Shown: positions 5,923 to 47,553 of the stretch, in pieces
Layout: each line of letters opens with the position of its first letter
Numbering within the stretch: the first letter of the stretch is position 1
Assembly (NCBI GenBank): GCA_036374435.1
Contig: DASUTU010000057.1
Location: forward strand, 1-63,957
Source of the DNA: Actinomycetota bacterium
GTDB lineage: Bacteria; Actinomycetota; UBA4738; HRBIN12
DNA length: 63,957 bases
Direction: 5' to 3'
Position numbers and translations under genes: made by a program
The notes under the pieces: generated by a model
Databases searched by the model: none
Seen by the model: only the letters and a program-made list of their open reading frames with translations
Told to the model about the DNA's origin: nothing

Positions 5923-6702
5923 ATGGCCAGGACGCTGGCGGAGTGGTGGAACGACCGGTCCCTACGGTGGAAGGGCATCATCGTGGTCGCCTTCCCGGTG
6001 GTGGCCCTGTTGGCGGTCACCGCCGTGTTCGGCGTGGCCTCGACGGTGGCCGACCGCAGCGCGCAGGCGTACGAGGAGGGCGCGTGTCCACCGCCGTGGA
6101 CCGGCTGACGAATCACCTGTCGGCGGCGGAAGCCGGGCTGCGCGGCTACCTCCTGACCAAAGACGACCTGTTCCTCGAGCCGTATTTCCGCATCGTCGGC
6201 GGCCGCCCGCGGCCAAGGCGGACCTCGTCGCGGCGCTCGCCGAGGACACGGTGTTCACCCACCTGACCGAGGCATTCGCGACCCGAGTCGATCGGCTCGA
6301 GGACATCTCGGTGGAGATCCTGGACGCTGCCTCAAACAGGTCAGCGACGAGCTGGGACACGCCATGGGGTCGCGCCTGCTGATCGATGCGGCCGACGCCA
6401 TTCGCTCGGCGATCCGACAGTGCGACGTGCCGGCCCGAGTGGGCGGCGACGAGTTCGCCGTCCTGCTGGTGGGCGGACGGACCGCCGCCGAGAACGTCGT
6501 CGGGCGGTTGAACGATGTGATCGCCCGAACCAACTCGGCGTCGTGCGGCCCCTACACGCTTTCGCTGTCCGTCGGGACCGCCGTGTCCTCGCACGGGGAC
6601 CGACACTCTCTCTCGCGACTGCTGAGCGAGGCCGACGACGAGATGTACGCGAACAAGCGTGCTCGTCGCTCCGACCGATCCGGCTCCTCGCCCGGGCGTT
6701 AA
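5923..6702 (+). pseudogene. Degraded CHASE3-sensor diguanylate cyclase (frameshifts plus internal deletion)
   Basis: Pieces lie in different frames: TM (IIVVAFPVVALLAVTAVFG), CHASE3-like EAGLRGYLLTKDDLFLEPY, then a partial GGDEF domain LKQVSDELGHAMGSRLL...ARVGGDEFAVLL...LSVG...ADDEMYANK. Confidence 0.8.
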
Positions 6703-16562: not shown

Positions 16563-20179
<3,617 letters not shown>

Positions 20180-25469: not shown

Positions 25470-28049
25470 TCACCTCACGACGCGGACCGAGCTCCCCCGG
25501 GGCGACTTCTCGATCTCGACGCGGGCGGGGAGCCGGATGGCCAGCTCCTGGACGTGGGTGATGACCCCGACCATGCGCCCGTCGCCGCCGAGCTGCTCGA
25601 TGGCCTCGACCACGACCTCGAGCGACTCGTGGTCGAGGGTGCCGAATCCTTCGTCGAGGAACAGCGAGTCCAGCCGGGCCTTCTCGGTCACGGCGAGCGA
25701 CCGCACCTGCTCCGAGAGGGCGAGCGCGAGCGCGAGCGACGCGAGGAACGTCTCCCCGCCCGAGAGCGTCCTGGCGCTCCGGCGCTCCTCGCCGTTCCAC
25801 GTGTCGACGACGGAGAACTCGTCGTCGGCGTATTCGAGGCGGTACCGCCCCTGGGACAACGCCGACAGGCGCTCCGAGCCCGCCGCGGCGAGCACCTGGA
25901 GGGCCTCCACCTGGAGGAACGCGATCAGCCGGTCCTGACGGAGCTCGCGGGCCAGGGCGTCGAAGACCTCGGCGCGCGTCCGGGCCCCGGTGATCTGCTC
26001 CACGATCGCCTCCGCGTTGGCGAGCTTCTCGGCGGCGGCCGCGGCCCGGTCGGCGGCCGTGGCGGCCTCGCGCGCCGCGGCGGTCCGGGTGGCCGACGCG
26101 AGCTCCAGGACCTCGGCCACGGTGAGGCCGTCGAGGTCAGCATCGACGAACCCATCGAGGTGGCCGGCGGCCTCGAGCGCCACCTCTCGCTCGCCGGCGA
26201 TACGGTCCGCCGCGGCCCGGGCGAGGGTGTCGGCCGACCGCTCGAACAGGGACGCCAGCGCTCCGGACGCAACCGCGAGCGCGGCGGCGTCCTCCTTCCC
26301 GGTGAGCGGCGGCGGCGCGTCCTCGACGCCGTCGGCGAGCGACCGCGCACGCTCCAGCAGCCCCGCGACGGCGAGCCCGCCGATCCGCCCGCGCGCCTCG
26401 GCGAGCTCGGTGGCGAGCCCGTCCCGCTCGCGTTCGGCCTCGGCGAGCTCGCGCCGTAGCTCCTCGAGGTCCCCCTCCGCCTCCCCCTGGGCCGCCTCGA
26501 GCTCCTCCAGCCGCTCGAGGCGTTCGTCGATGGTCGCGAGCGGGTCCGCCGGGAGCTTCGGCCCGAGGGCCGTGGCCAGGTCGGCCTCGAGCCGCGCCAC
26601 GTCGGTCCGCGCCCTGGCCGCCGCCTTCGCGCACCGCTCGGCCTCCTGTTCGGCCGCCTCCACGGCCGCGGCGGCTCGGTCACGGGCGCGTTCGGCCTCG
26701 GCGAGCGCCTGCTGGGCCCTCTTCGCCGCGGCGCTCGCCCGGTCGAGCGCGACCCGCGCCCGGTCCAGCGAGGGCGCCTTCGGCGCCTTGGGGAGCGTGG
26801 CGATCTTCGCCCCGCAGACGGGGCAGGCGTCGCCGACGTGCACCCCGGCGCGCACCGCGGCGACGAGGTTCGCGTGTTGCGCCTCGTCCAGCGCGGACCG
26901 GGCGCCCTCGAACGCGTCGATCGCCGCCTCGGCGTCGGCCACGGCGACGGTGACGGCCGCCTCGGTCGCCGCCGAGGCGGCCCGCAGCGCCGGGATGGCC
27001 TGCTCCGCGGCGGCGAGCTCCTCCTCGGCCTCGGCGAGCGCGACACGGGCGTCGACGAACGTCTCCGCCTTCACGCGCACGGCGACCAGCTCGACCGTGC
27101 GCCCCCAGGCCGACTCGGCCTTCTCGCGGGCTGCCGTCGCCTTCGCCGCGGCCCGCTCCCGCGCGACGACGGCCTTCTTCCGCTCGTCGACCTCGGCCGC
27201 GATCGAGGCGGTCCGGGCCGCGAGGTCCCCGAGCGCGTCCGCCACCCCGGCCGCGACGCCCCGCGCGTCGCGGAGGTCGCGTTCGCACGCCTCCAGGTCG
27301 GCGATGGCGCGGGCGCTCTCCGACCAGCGGTCGTGCACCTCCCGCACGGTCGTCTCGGCTGCCGCCAGCGCCTCCTCCCGGTGCGCCGCCGCCTTCGCCA
27401 CCGCCTCCGCCTCGGCCACCGCGTCCGGGGAGACGCCCGCGTATTCGGTCTCGAGCACGGACGACTTCGCCCGGACGTCCGCCTCGGCCTGACGTTTGAC
27501 CTCCCCGGCCCGTCTGCCCAGGCGCTCGAACAGCTCGAGCCCGAGGAGATCGGTGAGGATGTCGCGCCGCTGCCGGGCCTCACCCACGAGGAACTCGGCG
27601 AAGCGTCCCTGGGGCAACAGGACCGTCCGGGTGAAGGCCTCGTAGTCGAGGCCGACGGCGCGTTCGATCATCTGGTTGGCCGTGCCGACCCGGTCGGCCC
27701 CCTCGCCGGCCTGCACCCACCCGTCGCCTTCGCCGCGCTCCAGCAGTACCTGCGTCGCGCCTTTCGCCGAGGTCCGGCGCGCCACGCGGTATCGCGCGTC
27801 GTCCACGGCGAACTCGAAGATCACCGCCATGGTCGGCTGGCCCTGGCTGATGAGCTGGTGCAGGCCCTGCTTGCCGATGCGCTCGACCCGCCCGAAGAGG
27901 GCGTACGTGACCGCGTCCAGGATCGACGACTTGCCCGAGCCGGTCGGGCCGCTGATCGCGAACAGATCGAGCTCGTGCCCCTCGAAGTCGATGGTCTGGG
28001 TGTCGCGGTAGGCGGTGAAGCTCTTGACCTCGAGCCGGATCGGTCTCAT
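25470..28049 (-). CDS. sbcC: SbcC/Rad50 SMC-family ATPase
   Basis: Walker A GPTGSGKS, Q-loop LPQG, Zn-hook CPVCG within a long coiled coil, LSGGE signature, LFLDEGFGTLD, ITH. Confidence 0.92.
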   Translation of the reverse strand: MRPIRLEVKSFTAYRDTQTIDFEGHELDLFAISGPTGSGKSSILDAVTYALFGRVERIGKQGLHQLISQGQPTMAVIFEFAVDDARYRVARRTSAKGATQVLLERGEGDGWVQAGEGADRVGTANQMIERAVGLDYEAFTRTVLLPQGRFAEFLVGEARQRRDILTDLLGLELFERLGRRAGEVKRQAEADVRAKSSVLETEYAGVSPDAVAEAEAVAKAAAHREEALAAAETTVREVHDRWSESARAIADLEACERDLRDARGVAAGVADALGDLAARTASIAAEVDERKKAVVARERAAAKATAAREKAESAWGRTVELVAVRVKAETFVDARVALAEAEEELAAAEQAIPALRAASAATEAAVTVAVADAEAAIDAFEGARSALDEAQHANLVAAVRAGVHVGDACPVCGAKIATLPKAPKAPSLDRARVALDRASAAAKRAQQALAEAERARDRAAAAVEAAEQEAERCAKAAARARTDVARLEADLATALGPKLPADPLATIDERLERLEELEAAQGEAEGDLEELRRELAEAERERDGLATELAEARGRIGGLAVAGLLERARSLADGVEDAPPPLTGKEDAAALAVASGALASLFERSADTLARAAADRIAGEREVALEAAGHLDGFVDADLDGLTVAEVLELASATRTAAAREAATAADRAAAAAEKLANAEAIVEQITGARTRAEVFDALARELRQDRLIAFLQVEALQVLAAAGSERLSALSQGRYRLEYADDEFSVVDTWNGEERRSARTLSGGETFLASLALALALSEQVRSLAVTEKARLDSLFLDEGFGTLDHESLEVVVEAIEQLGGDGRMVGVITHVQELAIRLPARVEIEKSPRGSSVRVVR

Positions 28050-29218
28050 GCGGCGCCCTCCGACTCGAGCTCGAGCACCTCGTCGAACGCCTCGAGCAGG
28101 GCCTCCGGCGGCGGCGCGCCGTGGTGGGCCTCGTGGTACGCCACGAACTGGTCGCGCGGGGCGAGCGAGGACAGCGGCTCGCCGCCGCCGCCGTCTCCCT
28201 CGCCCCGCTCGTAGACCAGGTGCACGTCGAGGACGTTCGGCAGCTCGTCGCGGATCCGGTCGGCGATGCCCGGGACCGGCCCCTCGGACTGGACGAACAC
28301 GCGGAGCCAGGCATCGCCCGCGCCGGCCCCCTGGGCCAGGACCTCGTCGAGGGTGCCCCGGAGGTCCTTCAGCGGCCGCCCGCTCGACAGCCGCACCTCG
28401 GTCACCCTGGCCGGCTTCCCGGGTGCGGCGTCGACGACGGTGACGCTCTTGCGCTGGCCGGCCTCGCCGAAGTCGAGCTGGAGCAGCGACCCGGCGAACC
28501 GGGCCGGCGCCGGCGACCCCTTGACGGCCTGCGGCAGGTGCACGTGGCCGAGCGCGACGTACGCCGCCTCGGCCGGCAGCCGCGACGGAGGGACCGCGTA
28601 CGCGATCCCGATCGTGAGCTCGCGTTCGCCGCCGCCCGGCGTCACGAGCGCGCCGTCGGTGAACAGATGGCCGAGCAGGATCGGGATCCGCCCCGGCGTG
28701 AACCCGGACGCCATCGCGCCGAGGAGCTCCCCCATCCCCTGCGCGTAACCCTGATACCAGGCCTCGCCGGCGTCGAACAGGGCCGCGGCGTCGCCGAACC
28801 GGCGCTCGGGCACGAAGGGGACGGCGGCGATCTCGGCCTCGTGCTCCCCATCGCGGCTCGGGACGACGACCACGCCGCCGGCGTCCGGCGGCGCCACCTT
28901 CGGCACGATCTCGATCCCCAGCGGCCGCAGGACCTTCCCGAACGCCGCCAACCGCAGCGGCGAGTCGTGGTTGCCCGGGATCGCCACCACGCGGATCCCG
29001 GCGTCGTGCAGCCGCAGGAACGCGTCGAACACGAGGCCGTCGGCCTCCGGCGCGGGGGCGCGATGTTCGTACAGGTCGCCGGCGATCAGGATGCAGTCGA
29101 CGCCTTCGTCGACGGCGATGCCCACCGCCTCGTCCAGTGCCGCGGAGAACTCCTCGGCCCGAGAGCGCCCGCGGATGGTCTTGCCGACGTGCCAGTCTCC
29201 GGTATGCAGGAACCGCAC
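28046..29218 (-). CDS. sbcD: SbcD/Mre11 metallophosphoesterase nuclease
   Basis: FLHTGDWHVGK, AGDLYE, PGNHDS, GHLF, LGHVH motifs. Confidence 0.93.
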   Translation of the reverse strand: MRFLHTGDWHVGKTIRGRSRAEEFSAALDEAVGIAVDEGVDCILIAGDLYEHRAPAPEADGLVFDAFLRLHDAGIRVVAIPGNHDSPLRLAAFGKVLRPLGIEIVPKVAPPDAGGVVVVPSRDGEHEAEIAAVPFVPERRFGDAAALFDAGEAWYQGYAQGMGELLGAMASGFTPGRIPILLGHLFTDGALVTPGGGERELTIGIAYAVPPSRLPAEAAYVALGHVHLPQAVKGSPAPARFAGSLLQLDFGEAGQRKSVTVVDAAPGKPARVTEVRLSSGRPLKDLRGTLDEVLAQGAGAGDAWLRVFVQSEGPVPGIADRIRDELPNVLDVHLVYERGEGDGGGGEPLSSLAPRDQFVAYHEAHHGAPPPEALLEAFDEVLELESEGAA

Positions 29219-43649: not shown

Positions 43650-45242
43650 GTGGCCACCACCGAGGAACGACCCGCCGCCGGGCCCCCCGGGCCGAGCATC
43701 GAGGAACGCATCGAGGAGCTCCGCAAACGCCGGGCTCAGCTTGCCGATTCGGCCCGCAAAGAGGCCGTTCGCAAGCAGCACGAGAAGGGCAAGCTCACCG
43801 CCCGCGAGCGGATCGACCTGCTCCTGGACCGGGACACGTTCCAGGAGACCGATCCGTTCGCGGTGCACCGCAGCCACGACCTCGGCATGGAGCGGAACCG
43901 CCCGCCCGGAGACGGCGTGGTGACGGGCTACGGGACGATCGACGGCCGACGGGCGTTCGTGGCCAGCCAGGACTTCACCGTGTTCGGCGGGTCCCTGGGC
44001 GAGGTGCACGCGCAGAAGATCTGCAAGGTGATGGACCTCGCGATGTCCACGGGCGCCCCGTTCATCGCCATCAACGACTCGGGCGGCGCCAGGATCCAGG
44101 AAGGGGCGGCGAGCCTCGCCGGATACGGCTACGTCTTCGAGCGCAACGTCCGAGCTTCGGGCGTCATCCCCCAGATCAGCGTCATCATGGGCCCGTGCGC
44201 CGGCGGGGCCGTGTACTCCCCCGCCATCACCGACTTCACGTTCATGGTGCGCGAGACCTCGCACATGTTCATCACCGGACCCGACGTCATCAAGACCGTG
44301 ACCGGCGAGGAGGTGACGTTCGAGGAGCTCGGTGGCGCGATGACGCACGCCAGCAAGTCCGGTGTGGCCTCGTTCGTGGCCCAGGACGAGGCCGAGTGCC
44401 TGGCCATGGTCCGCCACCTCCTTTCCTACCTGCCGCCGAACAACGTCGAGGACCCCCCGTCGTACGCGCCGGTGGACGACCCCGAACGCGAGGACGACGG
44501 CCTCACCCGCCTCGTCCCGGACTCGGCCAAGGAGGCATACGACATGCACGAGGTCGTTCGCCGCGTCGTGGACGACGGCGACTTCTTCGAGGTCTTCCCG
44601 TATTGGGCGATGAACGTCGTCACGGGGTTCGCCCGGTTGGACGGGCGCAGCGTCGGCGTCGTGGCCAACCAGCCGAAGGTGCTCGCCGGGACGCTCGACA
44701 TCGAATCGAGCGAGAAGGCGTCGCGGTTCGTCCGGTTCTGCGATGCGTTCAACACCCCGATCGTCACGTTCGTCGACGTGCCCGGGTTCCTCCCGGGTAC
44801 CGAACAGGAGTTCAGCGGCATCATCCGGCACGGCGCGAAGCTGCTCTACGCGTTCGCCGAGGCCACGGTCCCGAGGCTCACGGTGATCACGCGAAAGGCC
44901 TACGGCGGGGCGTACCTCGTGATGAACTCGAAACACCTGCGGGCCGATGTCTCCTTCGCCTGGCCCACCGCCGAGATCGCCGTGATGGGGCCGGAGGGCG
45001 CCGTGAACGTCGTGTTCCGCAAACAGATCGAGAAGGCCGAGGACCCCACGGTCGCACGCGAGGAGCTCATCCAGCAGTACCAGCAGAAGTTCGCCACGCC
45101 CTACATCGCCGCCGAACGTGGGTTCATCGACGACGTGATCGAGCCGTCCCAGACGCGCCGGCGGTTGATCCGCGCGATGCGGATGCTGGCGACCAAACGC
45201 GAGGCCATCCCGGCCCGTAAACACGGGAACATCCCGCTGTGA
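43650..45242 (+). CDS. pccB: Acyl-CoA (propionyl-CoA) carboxylase beta subunit (carboxyltransferase)
   Basis: [71 protein letters not shown]-terminus. Confidence 0.95.
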
Positions 45243-45249
45243 GGCGCCA

Positions 45250-45510
45250 ATGAGCGACGACCGCCGGTTCGAGCTCCCCGATGGGCTCTCGCCCGAGGAG
45301 GAGCGGGCGATCATCCGGGCCCTCGAGCGCTACTTCGCTCGCGAGAGCCCGCACCCGGAACCCTGGGTGCTGGCCGGCCGGGTGGCCGCGGCCGGGCTCG
45401 GGGCGCTCCAGGCCCGCCGGTACACGGACGTCCCGTGGCAGGTCGGCACGTACGCGCCGTTCGCCCGTCGCGGCGTTCCCGCCGTGCGCGGGCGAGCCGA
45501 CGTGGCCTGA
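45250..45510 (+). CDS. Probable acyl-CoA carboxylase epsilon-like subunit
   Basis: 86 aa directly after pccB; LSPEEERAIIRAL...PWVLAGR resembles the P.PEE.AA...W...GR pattern of AccE. Confidence 0.55.
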   Translation: MSDDRRFELPDGLSPEEERAIIRALERYFARESPHPEPWVLAGRVAAAGLGALQARRYTDVPWQVGTYAPFARRGVPAVRGRADVA

Positions 45511-45630
45511 TTCGGTCGTTCGGGCTTCCCCAGGCCGACGGACGGGAAAAACCCCTCGCTCCAGGTATGTGGCGCCCTACATACGGACGGTACGCCTGCG
45601 TACCCGATACTTGGGATGAACGAAGGAACG

Positions 45631-45760
45631 GTCCCGACAAAGGCAAACCGCCGGTGACGGCGGGACGCAAAGCTCCGGGCCTCCCCGGCTGCACCCGGGG
45701 GCACGGGGGCACTGGAACGCAGCCCCCGGCCCAGCAGGAGGTGGCCGAGCCGCCGAAGGA
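45631..45760 (+). ncRNA. c-di-GMP-I (GEMM-I) riboswitch
   Basis: AAAGGCAAA-CCGCCG[GTGA]CGGCGG-GACGCAAAGCTCCGGGCCTCC...GGAGGTGGCCGAGCCGCCGAAGG matches the GEMM-I core including the GNRA tetraloop. Confidence 0.88.
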
Positions 45761-45812
45761 CCCGAGCCCCCCGGCTCGGCCCCGCCGGGACCCAGACCTC
45801 GGAGGATCGAGG

Positions 45813-46081
45813 ATGGGCATCGTTCGAATCGCCCGCGGGGGTTCGGCTACCTGTTCCACTCTCGCGACGAGCAGCTGCGCCGCGCCCTCGGGACCCGCTC
45901 CTGGGCCGTCGGGGGCGAGAACGTGGGCGTCGGCCGGTCGGTCGAGACCGTCCGGCGCGCGTTCATGGCGAGCCCGTCCCACCGGGACAACGTCCTGAAG
46001 GAAGGGTTCGATCGCCTCGCCGCCGGGATGGTCGAGGCGGACGGCGTCGTCTGGATCGCCGTGGTCTTCTCCGGTTCGTAG
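45813..46081 (+). pseudogene. Truncated CAP (SCP/PR-1) domain protein
   Basis: C-terminal CAP half LFHS...GGENVG...FMASPSHRDNVL...G...W.A.VF is out of frame with the SD-preceded ATG 45813; signal peptide and N-terminal half are missing. Confidence 0.78.
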
Positions 46082-46135
46082 CCGCGCCGACGACGCGGTG
46101 TCGATACCCGGTCGATGCGGGACCATAAGGCCGTC

Positions 46136-46432
46136 ATGACCGCCGTGAAGACCGAGGGAGCCGCCCCCACGCGCGGTCACGCGCTCGACGCCTTCCGGGC
46201 CGAGGGGTGCTCGTCGCCGCGTTCGTGGGGCAACGGACCCGGCGACGGGTACGGGCGCCACTCCCACGCCTACTACAAGGTCCTGTTCTGCCTGCAGGGG
46301 TCGATCACGTTCCACGTCGAGGGCGACGACGTCGTCCTTCGACCCGGCGATCGTCTCGACCTCGGGCCCGGGACCGATCATGCCGCCACGGTCGGCCCGG
46401 AGGGGTGCCAGTGTGTGGAGGCCTCGCGGTGA
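46136..46432 (+). CDS. Cupin domain protein
   Basis: HSH...KVLFCLQGSITF...LRPGDRLDLGPGTDHAA cupin motifs; GTGA overlap with the downstream GT4. Confidence 0.8.
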   Translation: MTAVKTEGAAPTRGHALDAFRAEGCSSPRSWGNGPGDGYGRHSHAYYKVLFCLQGSITFHVEGDDVVLRPGDRLDLGPGTDHAATVGPEGCQCVEASR

Positions 46433-47553
46433 AGGTGGCCGTCCACGTCGACCAGCTGTTCTTCCCGGCACCCGGCGGGATCGGCACGTACCTGCGGAAC
46501 CTCGTCCCGGCGATGGGCCGGCGCGATCCCGCGCTCGAGATCGTCTTGTTCCACGCCCGCTTCGCGCCGGCCCAGGCCCCGGAGCGATGGATGCGGGAGC
46601 ACTGGGTCGAGGAGCTCCCGGCGTCGATCCGGAGCCTGTACCCGCGCTGGGCCCTGCTGGGGCGCCCGGCCCTTCCCGCGTCGCTGCGCGGCGCCGAGAT
46701 CCTGCACGCCGTGAACCATGCGGCCGTGCCGCCGGCCGCCGAGGGACAGCGGCTGGTCGTGACCGTGCACGACCTGGCGGTCGAACGGTTCCCGCGGCTG
46801 TTCCCCCGCTCCTGGCGCCTGCTGTACCGGCTCGGCCTGCGAGCCGCGGTACGCCGGGCCACCGCGATCCTCACGCCCTCGCGGAACACGGCCGAGGACC
46901 TCCTGTCGCGCACCGGCGTCGATCCCGCCCGCCTGCACGTGGTCCCGCTCGCCCCCGCGCTTCCCTCCGGCCCGCTCGACGTGGACGAGACCCTGTCCCG
47001 CCTCAAGGTGCCGAGCCGGTTCGTTCTGTTCGTCGGGACGCTCGAGCCTCGGAAGAACCTGGTCCGCCTGGTCCGCGCCTATCGGCGCGTGGCGGCGAAC
47101 GGGCTGCCCCACGCCCTGGTGCTGGCGGGTCCGCTCGGCTGGCACCACGAGGCATTGATGCGCGAGCTCGCGCTGGAGGGGCCGGGCGAGATCGTCATGA
47201 CCGGCCCCTTGTCCGGCGAGGAGGTCGACGCGTTGTACCGCGCCGCGGACGTGTTCGCCTACCCGTCGCTGTACGAGGGGTTCGGGCTCCCGGTGGCCGA
47301 GGCCATGGCCAGGGGCGTCCCCACGGTGGCCTCGGCCACGTCCTCGATCCCCGAGGTCGCCGGCGACGCCGCCCTCGGGGTCGACCCCCGATCGGTCCCC
47401 GAGCTCGCCCACGCCATCGAGTCCCTGCTCACGGACGTGGAGCTGGCGGAGCGGTGCGCCGCCAGGGGGCGTGCCCAGGCCGAACGTTTCTCCTGGGACG
47501 AGACGGCCAGACGGACGCTCGAGGTCTACGAACGCGTGCTGGGGGCCAAGTGA
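46429..47553 (+). CDS. Glycosyltransferase family 4
   Basis: GGIGTY, VHDL, VGTLEPRKNL, YPSLYEGFGLPVAEA. Confidence 0.92.
   Translation: MKVAVHVDQLFFPAPGGIGTYLRNLVPAMGRRDPALEIVLFHARFAPAQAPERWMREHWVEELPASIRSLYPRWALLGRPALPASLRGAEILHAVNHAAVPPAAEGQRLVVTVHDLAVERFPRLFPRSWRLLYRLGLRAAVRRATAILTPSRNTAEDLLSRTGVDPARLHVVPLAPALPSGPLDVDETLSRLKVPSRFVLFVGTLEPRKNLVRLVRAYRRVAANGLPHALVLAGPLGWHHEALMRELALEGPGEIVMTGPLSGEEVDALYRAADVFAYPSLYEGFGLPVAEAMARGVPTVASATSSIPEVAGDAALGVDPRSVPELAHAIESLLTDVELAERCAARGRAQAERFSWDETARRTLEVYERVLGAK

What the first reader, a model, noticed from the sequence alone, without database searches (positions are those of the whole stretch)
45631..45815. c-di-GMP-I riboswitch with an enlarged P3 and a visible translational expression platform
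The aptamer has the G20- and C92-equivalent bases (Vc2 numbering), predicting c-di-GMP rather than cGAMP. P3 carries a ~55-nt insertion with two extra hairpins. The aptamer 3' strand CCGAGCCG (45745-45752) is perfectly complementary to CGGCTCGG (45772-45779), which can instead pair with 45762-45768. A CCTCG/CGAGG hairpin (45797-45812) encloses the SD just before ATG 45813 (seen). This is a mutually exclusive switch controlling a CAP-domain gene (inference).
Basis: partly seen in the sequence, partly recalled or inferred. Interest (0 to 1): 0.65.

Follow-up and report, generated by a model that had tools for sequence, protein, structure and literature searches.

The report
Orphaned c-di-GMP riboswitch, bloated P3
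This is a genuine c-di-GMP-sensing riboswitch with a unique 52-base insertion in one arm, but the secreted-protein gene it once controlled is now a broken stub, so it is most likely a recently orphaned relic rather than a working new kind of switch.

Summary
The sequence observations hold. Bases 45630-45762 are a class-I c-di-GMP (GEMM-I) aptamer. RF01051 scores 41.1 bits (cut-off 35) but aligns a false short P3. A model built only from relatives matches end to end at 66.1 bits. The G20, A47 and C92 equivalents are present. P3 carries a 52-nt insert (45685-45736) that folds as two hairpins. No relative has it, but two independent assemblies reproduce it. The reported complementarities and the SD hairpin exist.

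In relatives this riboswitch heads a cassette for a full-length secreted CAP/YkwD protein. Here about codons 3-83 are deleted. ATG 45813 is out of frame with the remaining CAP C-terminal half, so the controlled gene is a pseudogene.

The genome's two other riboswitch-CAP loci are also broken. One has lost the aptamer; the other has lost the aptamer and most of the gene. No intact canonical GGDEF gene was found, only fragments.

Most likely this is a recently orphaned riboswitch in a species dismantling its c-di-GMP regulon. Only hairpin H1 of the platform shows covariation, so the ON/OFF logic remains inferred. It is a known riboswitch class of modest interest.

The parts
45604..45610 (+). CCGATAC motif about 20 nt upstream of P1; a -10-like promoter candidate of the cassette
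   Evidence: It is invariant in the window and the three syntenic orthologs. CCGATA(A/C) is also present upstream of type A and type B leaders and of the aptamer-less C139 locus. The sigma-70 consensus scan found nothing, so promoter function is inference.
45630..45762 (+). c-di-GMP-I (GEMM-I) aptamer from P1 to P1. P1 is 45630-45636 with 45754-45762. P2 is 45643-45668 with GNRA loop GUGA at 45654-45657. P3 is 45672-45684 with 45737-45750.
   Evidence: RF01051 scores 41.1 bits, above the gathering score of 35. RF03167-model alignment covers 45633-45758. Lineage model R1 scores 66.1 bits, E 1e-15, positions 1-93 of 93. All 20 enforced pairs are standard.
45685..45736 (+). Species-specific 52-nt insert replacing the CUCG loop at the tip of P3. 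It folds as two hairpins (45685-45698 and 45699-45732), which makes P3 a three-way junction.
   Evidence: The ortholog alignment defines it. Constrained fold: aptamer-consistent structure -68.8 kcal/mol against an unconstrained decoy fold of -71.9; the insert alone folds at -30.8 against -22.5 +/- 3.3 for shuffles. There is no other copy in the genome and none in public collections with the same flanks. It is not a duplication of the flanks. It contains an 8-nt tandem repeat at 45696-45712. It is reproduced without change in two independent assemblies.
45762..45779 (+). Hairpin H1 (CCGAGCC-CCCC-GGCUCGG). Its 5' arm repeats the aptamer P3 3' strand CCGAGCC (45745-45751), so its 3' arm can pair with either.
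   Evidence: Read from the sequence. It is formed in all predicted folds. The homologous hairpin in relatives has compensatory changes in 4 of 8 pairs. The alternative pairing with the P3 3' strand is 81% complementary across relatives but shows no covariation.
45778..45792 (+). Hairpin H2 (GGCCC-CGCC-GGG[A]CC). Its 3' arm CGGGACC (45786-45792) is also the exact complement of the P1 5' strand GGUCCCG (45630-45636).
   Evidence: Read from the sequence. The homologous GGUCCC/GGGACC hairpin is present in type A leaders; its four counted pairs are 80% paired with no compensatory change.
45797..45812 (+). Local hairpin CCUCG/CGAGG with the Shine-Dalgarno GGAGGA (45801-45806) in its 6-nt loop
   Evidence: Sequence and folds. 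Relatives have GUCGGGAGGCUCGAG here, which pairs with the H1 5' arm. In the window that 8-bp anti-SD pairing has two internal mismatches (read from the sequences). The SNP G45811C in the sister-strain assembly breaks the second pair of the hairpin.
45813..45998 (+). ATG-initiated 61-codon open frame, out of frame with the CAP homology; a nonsense product
   Evidence: ORF list and translations. Pfam finds nothing.
45818..46081 (+). Remnant of the CAP/YkwD gene. It holds only the C-terminal half, has no start codon in frame before GTG 45923, and lacks the signal peptide.
   Evidence: TIGR02909 matches positions 62-122 of 127, E 1.5e-8. There is no Pfam CAP hit. It aligns to residues 84-160 of the L011 protein and 86-171 of the L032/L033 proteins. 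Full-length orthologs of 152-172 aa give Pfam CAP positions 1-115 of 117.

Best explanation
Bases 45630-45762 are a bona fide class-I c-di-GMP aptamer. It belongs to a riboswitch-plus-secreted-CAP-protein cassette that is common in this uncultured soil Actinomycetota lineage. In relatives the cassette consists of a CCGATA promoter-like box, the aptamer, hairpins H1 and H2, a conserved SD (GGGAGG) and a gene for a 152-172-aa signal-peptide CAP/YkwD protein. There is no terminator, so control is translational. In those leaders the H1 5' arm copies the aptamer's P3 3' strand (CCGAGC). The H1 3' arm and the SD flank both carry GCUCG. When the ligand locks the aptamer's CCGAGC box away, only one CCGAGC box is left to pair, and it pairs with the nearer H1 arm. 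The SD would then stay free, which would make c-di-GMP an ON signal. That direction is inferred, not shown. In the window three things have happened. (1) A 52-nt insert sits in the P3 tip. It leaves all ligand-contacting and tertiary-contact bases intact, but it creates a competing decoy P3. (2) The SD-flank pairing has degenerated into a purely local hairpin. (3) About codons 3-83 of the CAP gene are deleted, and the start codon is left out of frame. The aptamer probably still binds c-di-GMP, but it no longer has a functional gene to regulate. It is a recently orphaned riboswitch in a species that is dismantling its c-di-GMP riboswitch regulon.
For: Aptamer identity: with covariation of P1-P3 in relatives. 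The G20/A47/C92 roles are taken from PMC4744006. Cassette family: 33 of 61 related genomes carry 1-4 copies at 47-75 bits, and 32 of the 50 relatives' copies precede CAP genes. There are three syntenic locus types: type A after gcvPB, type B after a nitrilase-like gene, and type C after PCCB. Gene decay in the window. The lesions are real. An independent Logan assembly is 100% identical, and a second from another run differs by 5 SNPs and no indels over 1.3 kb, with the same insert, the same deletion and the same G5 run. Decay across the regulon in the same genome: at the type B locus (C139) the CAP gene is intact but the aptamer and H1 are deleted. At the type A locus (C28) only the last 47 or so CAP codons remain and no aptamer. 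The window copy is the only RF01051 hit in the genome. No full-length canonical GGDEF was found (best 75 bits, a fragment), whereas every same-genus relative has one or more at 113-169 bits. Further GGDEF and EAL fragments lie on C59 and C15. No PilZ was found anywhere in the lineage, so the riboswitches are the only recognised c-di-GMP receptors found here. No terminator was found. H1 is supported by covariation.
Against: Every conserved aptamer position is intact and the CAP remnant still shows its motifs. The decay is therefore recent, or the element is still under selection. Two REC-GGDEF-like (GGDDF, PleD-like) genes and one REC-EAL gene remain, so c-di-GMP may still be made. The genome is a 95%-complete MAG, and missing GGDEF genes could lie in the unbinned 5%. 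A cupin gene starts 34 nt after the remnant (46115) and could still be influenced by the leader. The ON/OFF logic rests on conserved complementarity without covariation. Thermodynamic folds did not separate bound from unbound SD accessibility. No ligand-binding or expression data exist.
Confidence: 0.62

Rival explanations
1. The riboswitch still works but has been re-targeted. c-di-GMP binding controls translation of the 61-codon out-of-frame ORF (45813-45998). By coupling or mRNA stabilisation, this would control the cupin and glycosyltransferase genes that start at 46115.
For: The aptamer core, H1, H2, SD and ATG are all intact. The cupin gene begins 34 nt after the remnant's stop. The same arrangement is fixed in two strains.
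Against: In most relatives the cupin gene follows the small ORF directly, with no riboswitch, so it does not need one. The out-of-frame ORF ends 117 nt before the cupin start. The SD-flank pairing conserved in relatives is degraded here, and a sister strain carries a hairpin-breaking SNP. The other two cassettes in the genome are plainly broken.
Confidence: 0.2
2. This is the first reader's model: a working translational switch for a CAP-domain protein. The truncated CAP half would be made from ATG 45813 by a -1 shift on the G5 run (45837-45841), or from GTG 45923.
For: A -1 slip on GGGGG would join MGIVRIARGG to FGYLFHS... in the CAP frame. The CAP motifs in the remnant are well kept.
Against: The product would lack both the signal peptide and the N-terminal half of the domain that every ortholog has. 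Pfam CAP does not recognise it. No relative has such a short form at an intact locus.
Confidence: 0.08
3. The insert and the deletion are assembly or binning artefacts of the MAG, for example a chimera between paralogous cassettes.
For: The genome has three paralogous cassettes that could confuse an assembler.
Against: Two independent per-run assemblies reproduce the region. One is a different strain with 5 SNPs and no indels. The C139 lesion is also reproduced.
Confidence: 0.03

Closest known systems
Vc2 c-di-GMP-I riboswitch of Vibrio cholerae (Rfam RF01051; structure 3IRW)
   Same: Three-helix aptamer. A GNRA loop on P2 docks on P3. The ligand contacts G20, A47 and C92 and the interhelical C44-G83 pair all have equivalents here: G45642, A45669, C45753, C45666 and G45743 or G45744 (residue roles from PMC4744006).
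   Different: P3 ends in a 52-nt, two-hairpin insert, giving an aptamer of 133 nt against 82-119 nt in 30 relatives. The platform is translational and GC-rich. The downstream gene is a pseudogene.
Syntenic ortholog cassettes in same-genus MAGs (L015 in G008, L032 in G013, L033 in G006)
   Same: Same locus order: PCCB, small ORF, riboswitch, CAP, cupin, glycosyltransferase. The aptamer 5' half is near-identical: invariant from 45630 to 45685 except one base (C45638, T in the orthologs), and P3 stems are the same.
   Different: The orthologs have a 4-nt P3 loop (CUCG), an anti-SD GCCUCC in H1, and an intact 172-aa secreted CAP protein.
c-di-GMP-I-GGC variant (Rfam RF03167)
   Same: This model gives the best full-length alignment, because it tolerates the long P3 and includes P1.
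   Different: The score of 42.8 is below its cut-off of 59. The variant consensus has GCGAAG where the window has the canonical GCAAAG (an A at position 47). The window is not a member.
GEMM-Ib 3',3'-cGAMP riboswitches
   Same: Same fold and clan.
   Different: From my own knowledge of the family, those carry A at position 20. The window has G45642, which predicts c-di-GMP.

Membership tests
c-di-GMP-I riboswitch (RF01051) | Covariance-model score at or above Rfam's gathering score | tested here: met
   41.1 bits against 35, and the same in the whole-genome search. The P3 part of that alignment is a decoy. The lineage model gives 66.1 bits over 45630-45762.
c-di-GMP-I riboswitch (RF01051) | P1-P2-P3 architecture with standard base pairs | tested here: met
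   All 25 model pairs are standard in the window, and all 20 enforced pairs are standard. The same helices show covariation in 26 relatives: 7 pairs with changes on both sides, reached by 1 of 500 shuffles (7 pairs) and 0 of 500 for cells changed and covariation score.
c-di-GMP-I riboswitch (RF01051) | Ligand-contacting G20, A47 and C92 | tested here: met
   G45642, A45669 and C45753 align to the consensus GGC, GCAAAG and GCC positions. Residue roles come from PMC4744006.
c-di-GMP-I riboswitch (RF01051) | GNRA tetraloop on P2, and the interhelical C44-G83 pair | tested here: met
   The GUGA loop is at 45654-45657. C45666 lies in GAC, and unpaired G45743 and G45744 lie in the P3 3' strand. This was checked at sequence level only.
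c-di-GMP-I riboswitch (RF01051) | Binds c-di-GMP and changes gene expression | not testable with these tools
   This needs in-line probing or ITC and a reporter assay. The insert creates a decoy P3 that is 3 kcal/mol more stable than the aptamer fold.
c-di-GMP-I-GGC variant (RF03167) | Score at or above the gathering score, and G at position 47 | tested here: not met
   42.8 bits against 59. The window has A45669.
cGAMP riboswitch (GEMM-Ib) | A at position 20 | tested here: not met
   Position 20 is G45642.
CAP/SCP/YkwD domain protein (PF00188, TIGR02909) as the regulated gene | A complete CAP domain in an ORF with a start codon; in this lineage also a signal peptide | tested here: not met
   No Pfam hit even at E=10. 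TIGR02909 matches only positions 62-122 of 127. ATG 45813 is out of frame and the N-terminal 80 or so codons are absent.
Transcription-terminating riboswitch platform | Intrinsic terminator between the aptamer and the start codon | tested here: not met
   There is no + strand terminator-like site in 45200-46500. H1 is followed by CCCCGCC, not a U tract.

The most novel reading that the evidence does not exclude
This species would be a natural snapshot of a whole riboswitch regulon being dismantled. All three conserved c-di-GMP-riboswitch/CAP cassettes carry different lesions: the aptamer deleted, the aptamer plus gene deleted, or the gene truncated with the aptamer kept and bloated. The canonical diguanylate cyclase and phosphodiesterase genes are reduced to fragments. 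The surviving aptamer, if it still binds ligand, would show that the GEMM-I P3 tip tolerates a 52-nt three-way-junction insert.
Probability: 0.5. Interest if true: 0.45.

Novelty: new member of a known kind. Interest (0 to 1): 0.33.

Why it matters
As a riboswitch it is ordinary: class I c-di-GMP aptamers are well known. Three things give it modest value. First, a simple score threshold is not enough, because the Rfam hit is real but mis-aligned around a decoy helix, so annotation pipelines would report a 65-nt 'aptamer' that is wrong. Second, it documents an unstudied regulon in uncultured soil Actinomycetota. There, 1-4 c-di-GMP riboswitches per genome drive secreted CAP/YkwD proteins, and no PilZ receptor was found in the 21 genomes checked. 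Third, it gives a dated example of how riboswitches die: the effector gene, the aptamer and the second-messenger enzymes are lost piecemeal within one species. The insert-bearing aptamer is also a ready-made test of how much extra structure the P3 tip can carry.

Tried and rejected
1. The 65-nt RF01051 alignment (45632-45696) is rejected as the aptamer boundary. Orthologs and the lineage model place the true P3 3' strand at 45737-45750.
2. RF03167 membership is rejected: the score is below the cut-off and position 47 is A.
3. The insert is not a repeat or mobile element, since there is no other copy in the genome. It is not a flank duplication, since alignment scores fall below the shuffle mean. 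Nothing with the same flanks and a 30-60-nt loop exists in the metagenome or genome collections.
4. A second RNA family inside the insert is rejected; only chance-level Rfam hits were found.
5. An intrinsic terminator is rejected. The two minus-strand 'terminators' are the complement of P2.
6. Constrained-versus-free folding of 33 homologous leaders, meant to read the ON/OFF direction from SD accessibility, gave no consistent difference. My P3 constraint was also mis-set for some sequences.
7. Covariation tests gave no support beyond conservation for the anti-SD helix and for the pairing of the P3 3' strand with the H1 3' arm.
8. I first took the GGDEF fragment at 6157-6699 for the ortholog of a 284-aa protein at the same distance in G006 and G008. 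It is not; DNA similarity stops in the LCP gene.
Independent Logan assemblies served instead.
10. Literature searches for a CAP/YkwD link to c-di-GMP riboswitches and for riboswitch relics returned nothing relevant.
11. Earlier notes of this scan on the same genome do not touch this locus.

Full report
**1. What is there**

The window is 71% G+C. It lies on contig C57 of a 2.8-Mb MAG with 172 contigs, 95% complete. Its nearest named relatives are uncultured soil 'Actinomycetota/Actinomycetes bacterium' MAGs.

Rfam's RF01051 (c-di-GMP-I) is the only family above its gathering score in the whole window. It hits 45632-45696 at 41.1 bits against a cut-off of 35. It is also the only such hit in the whole genome.

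That alignment closes P3 as a short hairpin (45672-45690). This is wrong. A permissive scan of 45500-45900 aligns 45633-45758 to the related RF03167 model, with P1 and a long P3 (42.8 bits, below that family's cut-off of 59).

I then built a covariance model from the aptamers of 26 relatives, leaving the window out. It matches 45630-45762 end to end at 66.1 bits, E about 1e-15. Every one of its 25 pairs is standard, and the surplus bases fall in the P3 loop. In those relatives the P1-P2-P3 structure is 94% paired, with 7 pairs changed on both sides (1 of 500 shuffles reach that pair count; 0 of 500 for cells changed and covariation score).

**2. Anatomy, read**

- P1 is GGUCCCG (45630-45636) with CG-AA-GGACC (45754-45762).
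- P2 has outer pairs G45643-C45668 and C45644-G45667, and an inner helix 45648-45653 with 45658-45663, capped by the GNRA loop GUGA.
- P3 is 45672-45684 with 45737-45750. C45675 is bulged, and G45743 and G45744 are unpaired.

By alignment, the Vc2 ligand contacts G20, A47 and C92 are G45642, A45669 and C45753. Their roles are described in PMC4744006. The universally conserved interhelical C-G pair described there also has its two partners: C45666 and G45743 or G45744.

The window has GCAAAG, not the GCGAAG of the GGC variant, and it has G rather than A at position 20. Sequence therefore predicts c-di-GMP as the ligand. Binding itself is untested.

**3. The enlarged P3 is real and unique**

Three same-genus genomes carry the syntenic locus, in the order PCCB, an 86-aa ORF, the riboswitch, CAP, cupin and a glycosyltransferase (L015, L032, L033). 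Their aptamers match the window from 45630 to 45685 at every base but one (C45638 is T in the orthologs) and again from the GGAGG strand onward. Their P3 loop, however, is just CUCG.

The window has 52 nt there (45685-45736). With the aptamer helices enforced, the insert folds into two hairpins, which turns the P3 tip into a three-way junction (-68.8 kcal/mol). The unconstrained optimum (-71.9) instead uses the start of the insert, CCGGCU, as a decoy P3 3' strand. This is the same decoy that RF01051 chose.

The insert has no second copy in the genome. It is not derived from its flanks. It holds an 8-nt tandem duplication. Pattern scans with the same flanks found no match in the public collections. 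Relatives' aptamers are 82-119 nt long, against 133 nt here.

**4. The cassette family**

Of the 60 related genomes searched, 32 carry 1-4 c-di-GMP-I aptamers at 47-75 bits; the tool's tally of 33 of 61 includes the window's own genome. Of the 50 relatives' copies, 32 sit in front of a CAP-domain gene. These encode 152-172-aa proteins with a signal peptide and a full Pfam CAP domain.

The cassettes occupy three conserved loci:
- type A, after gcvPB;
- type B, after a nitrilase-like gene;
- type C, after PCCB.

Most PCCB loci in the wider lineage have no riboswitch or CAP gene between the small ORF and the cupin gene. Type C is therefore a subclade-specific extra copy. The window's platform resembles type A most closely.

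No PilZ domain was found in any of 21 genomes of the lineage. The riboswitches are therefore the only recognised c-di-GMP receptors I could find.

**5. The expression platform**

No + strand terminator-like site follows the aptamer. Homologous leaders share four features:
- hairpin H1, directly after P1;
- hairpin H2 (GGUCCC/GGGACC);
- the conserved block GUCGGGAGGCUCGAG, which contains the SD;
- the start codon.

H1 has compensatory changes in 4 of 8 pairs. Two alternative pairings are complementary in about 81% of cells but show no covariation: the H1 5' arm with the SD block, and the aptamer's P3 3' strand with the H1 3' arm. RNAalifold also finds that the aptamer's own 3' segment, CGAGCUGCCGA, can pair across the SD.

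So the design has two CCGAGC boxes (the P3 3' strand and the H1 5' arm) and two GCUCG boxes (the H1 3' arm and the SD flank). My inferred reading is that ligand binding removes one CCGAGC box, which leaves the SD flank unpaired, so the switch is ON. Thermodynamic folding did not confirm any direction.

But the SD flank has changed from GGCUCG to GGAUCG, and the H1 loop from CCUC to CCCC. The ancestral 8-bp anti-SD pairing therefore now has two internal mismatches. A purely local hairpin (45797-45812) holds the SD in its loop instead. The SD is predicted about 77% unpaired whether or not the aptamer is folded.

**6. The regulated gene is broken**

ATG 45813 opens a 61-codon frame with no family match. 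The CAP-like sequence is in the +2 frame, from 45818 to 46081. It has no start codon before GTG 45923.

The remnant matches only the C-terminal half of YkwD (TIGR02909 positions 62-122 of 127) and is missed by Pfam CAP. It aligns to residues 84-160 or 86-171 of full-length relatives. About codons 3-83 are therefore gone, which removes the signal peptide and the N-terminal half of the domain. The junction lies right after the start codon and is out of frame.

**7. The lesions are not artefacts**

I therefore looked up independent per-run assemblies that encode the adjacent 86-aa protein. One Logan contig (SRR25158390) is identical over 44972-46221. Another (SRR26663084) differs by 5 SNPs and no indels over 44903-46221. 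Both have the insert, the deletion and the G5 run. One SNP, G45811C, breaks a pair of the SD hairpin.

**8. The rest of the genome tells the same story**

- At the type B locus (C139) the CAP gene is intact and keeps the tail of the leader (CCGGGACCCUGAGACGGGAGUCAGGG), but the aptamer and H1 are deleted. An independent assembly confirms this.
- At the type A locus (C28) only the last 47 or so CAP codons remain, directly after gcvPB.
- The best GGDEF match in the genome is a 75-bit fragment, and it lies in this window. It covers 6157-6699 (profile positions 43-160 of 161) and sits next to a CHASE3 fragment at 5943-6266, in another frame.
- Further GGDEF and EAL fragments lie on C59 and C15.
- Every same-genus relative has at least one GGDEF at 113-169 bits, and most have several GGDEF-EAL proteins.

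What remains are two PleD-like REC-GGDEF-like proteins with a GGDDF motif and one PvrR-like REC-EAL protein. These are conserved across the lineage. c-di-GMP synthesis therefore cannot be declared lost.

**9. Verdict**

The enlarged P3 is real, but it is a single-species peculiarity that adds a misfolding competitor. The claim of a 'switch controlling a CAP-domain gene' describes the ancestors, not this copy.

My best explanation, at about 0.6, is a recently orphaned riboswitch in a species that is shedding its c-di-GMP riboswitch regulon. The main rival, at about 0.2, is residual or re-targeted control of the downstream cupin/glycosyltransferase genes.

This is a new member of a known class. 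Interest is modest and lies mainly in the regulon and its decay, not in the mechanism.

Noticed in passing
window 5943-6699 (+): A broken diguanylate cyclase gene. A CHASE3 N-terminal fragment (5943-6266, profile positions 11-46 of 138) and a GGDEF fragment that keeps the GGDEF motif (6157-6699, profile positions 43-160 of 161) lie in different frames. This fragment is the best GGDEF match in the whole genome.
   Followed up: partly
G000 contig C139, about 27560-28100 (-); also locus L136: At the type B locus the CAP gene is intact (154 aa, Pfam CAP). About 115 nt holding the aptamer and H1 are missing, while the promoter-like CCGATA box and the SD-proximal leader remain. An independent assembly reproduces this.
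   Followed up: yes
G000 contig C28, about 17040-17190 (+): At the type A locus only the last 47 or so codons of a CAP gene survive, directly after gcvPB. Twelve relatives have a riboswitch and a full CAP gene at this position.
   Followed up: partly
relatives G001-G060 (loci L002-L051): c-di-GMP-I riboswitch plus secreted CAP/YkwD cassettes occur 1-4 times per genome at three conserved loci. No PilZ domain was found in the 21 genomes checked. I found no description of this regulon in the paper library.
   Followed up: partly
G000 contig C34, 18940-21223: A divergent gene pair, REC-EAL (PvrR-like) and REC-GGDEF-like with a GGDDF motif (PleD-like, below cut-off). A second REC-GGDDF gene lies on C127. 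Similar ~60-bit partial GGDEF hits, and in several cases a REC-EAL-sized EAL hit on the same contig, occur in most relatives; they may be the core c-di-GMP module that survives here.
   Followed up: partly
L010 (G002:C57), leader plus ORF: An aptamer nearly identical to the window's, with a normal short P3, precedes a 51-aa ORF that is little more than a signal peptide. This may be another truncated cassette gene.
   Followed up: no
window 45811; locus L134: A sister-strain assembly (SRR26663084) has 5 SNPs in 1.3 kb. G45811C breaks the second pair of the SD hairpin. Both SNPs inside the CAP remnant (45954 and 46023) change the amino acid in the CAP frame.
   Followed up: partly
window 45647-45663 (-): Two minus-strand 'terminator-like' hits are simply the reverse complement of P2 followed by the complement of CAAAGGCAAA. 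They are an artefact of the aptamer sequence.
   Followed up: yes
L052-L069 (PCCB loci of relatives): In most relatives the cupin gene follows the 86-aa ORF within 0-70 nt. Several others have 550-850 nt of unidentified sequence there, with no CAP match and no Rfam match.
   Followed up: no
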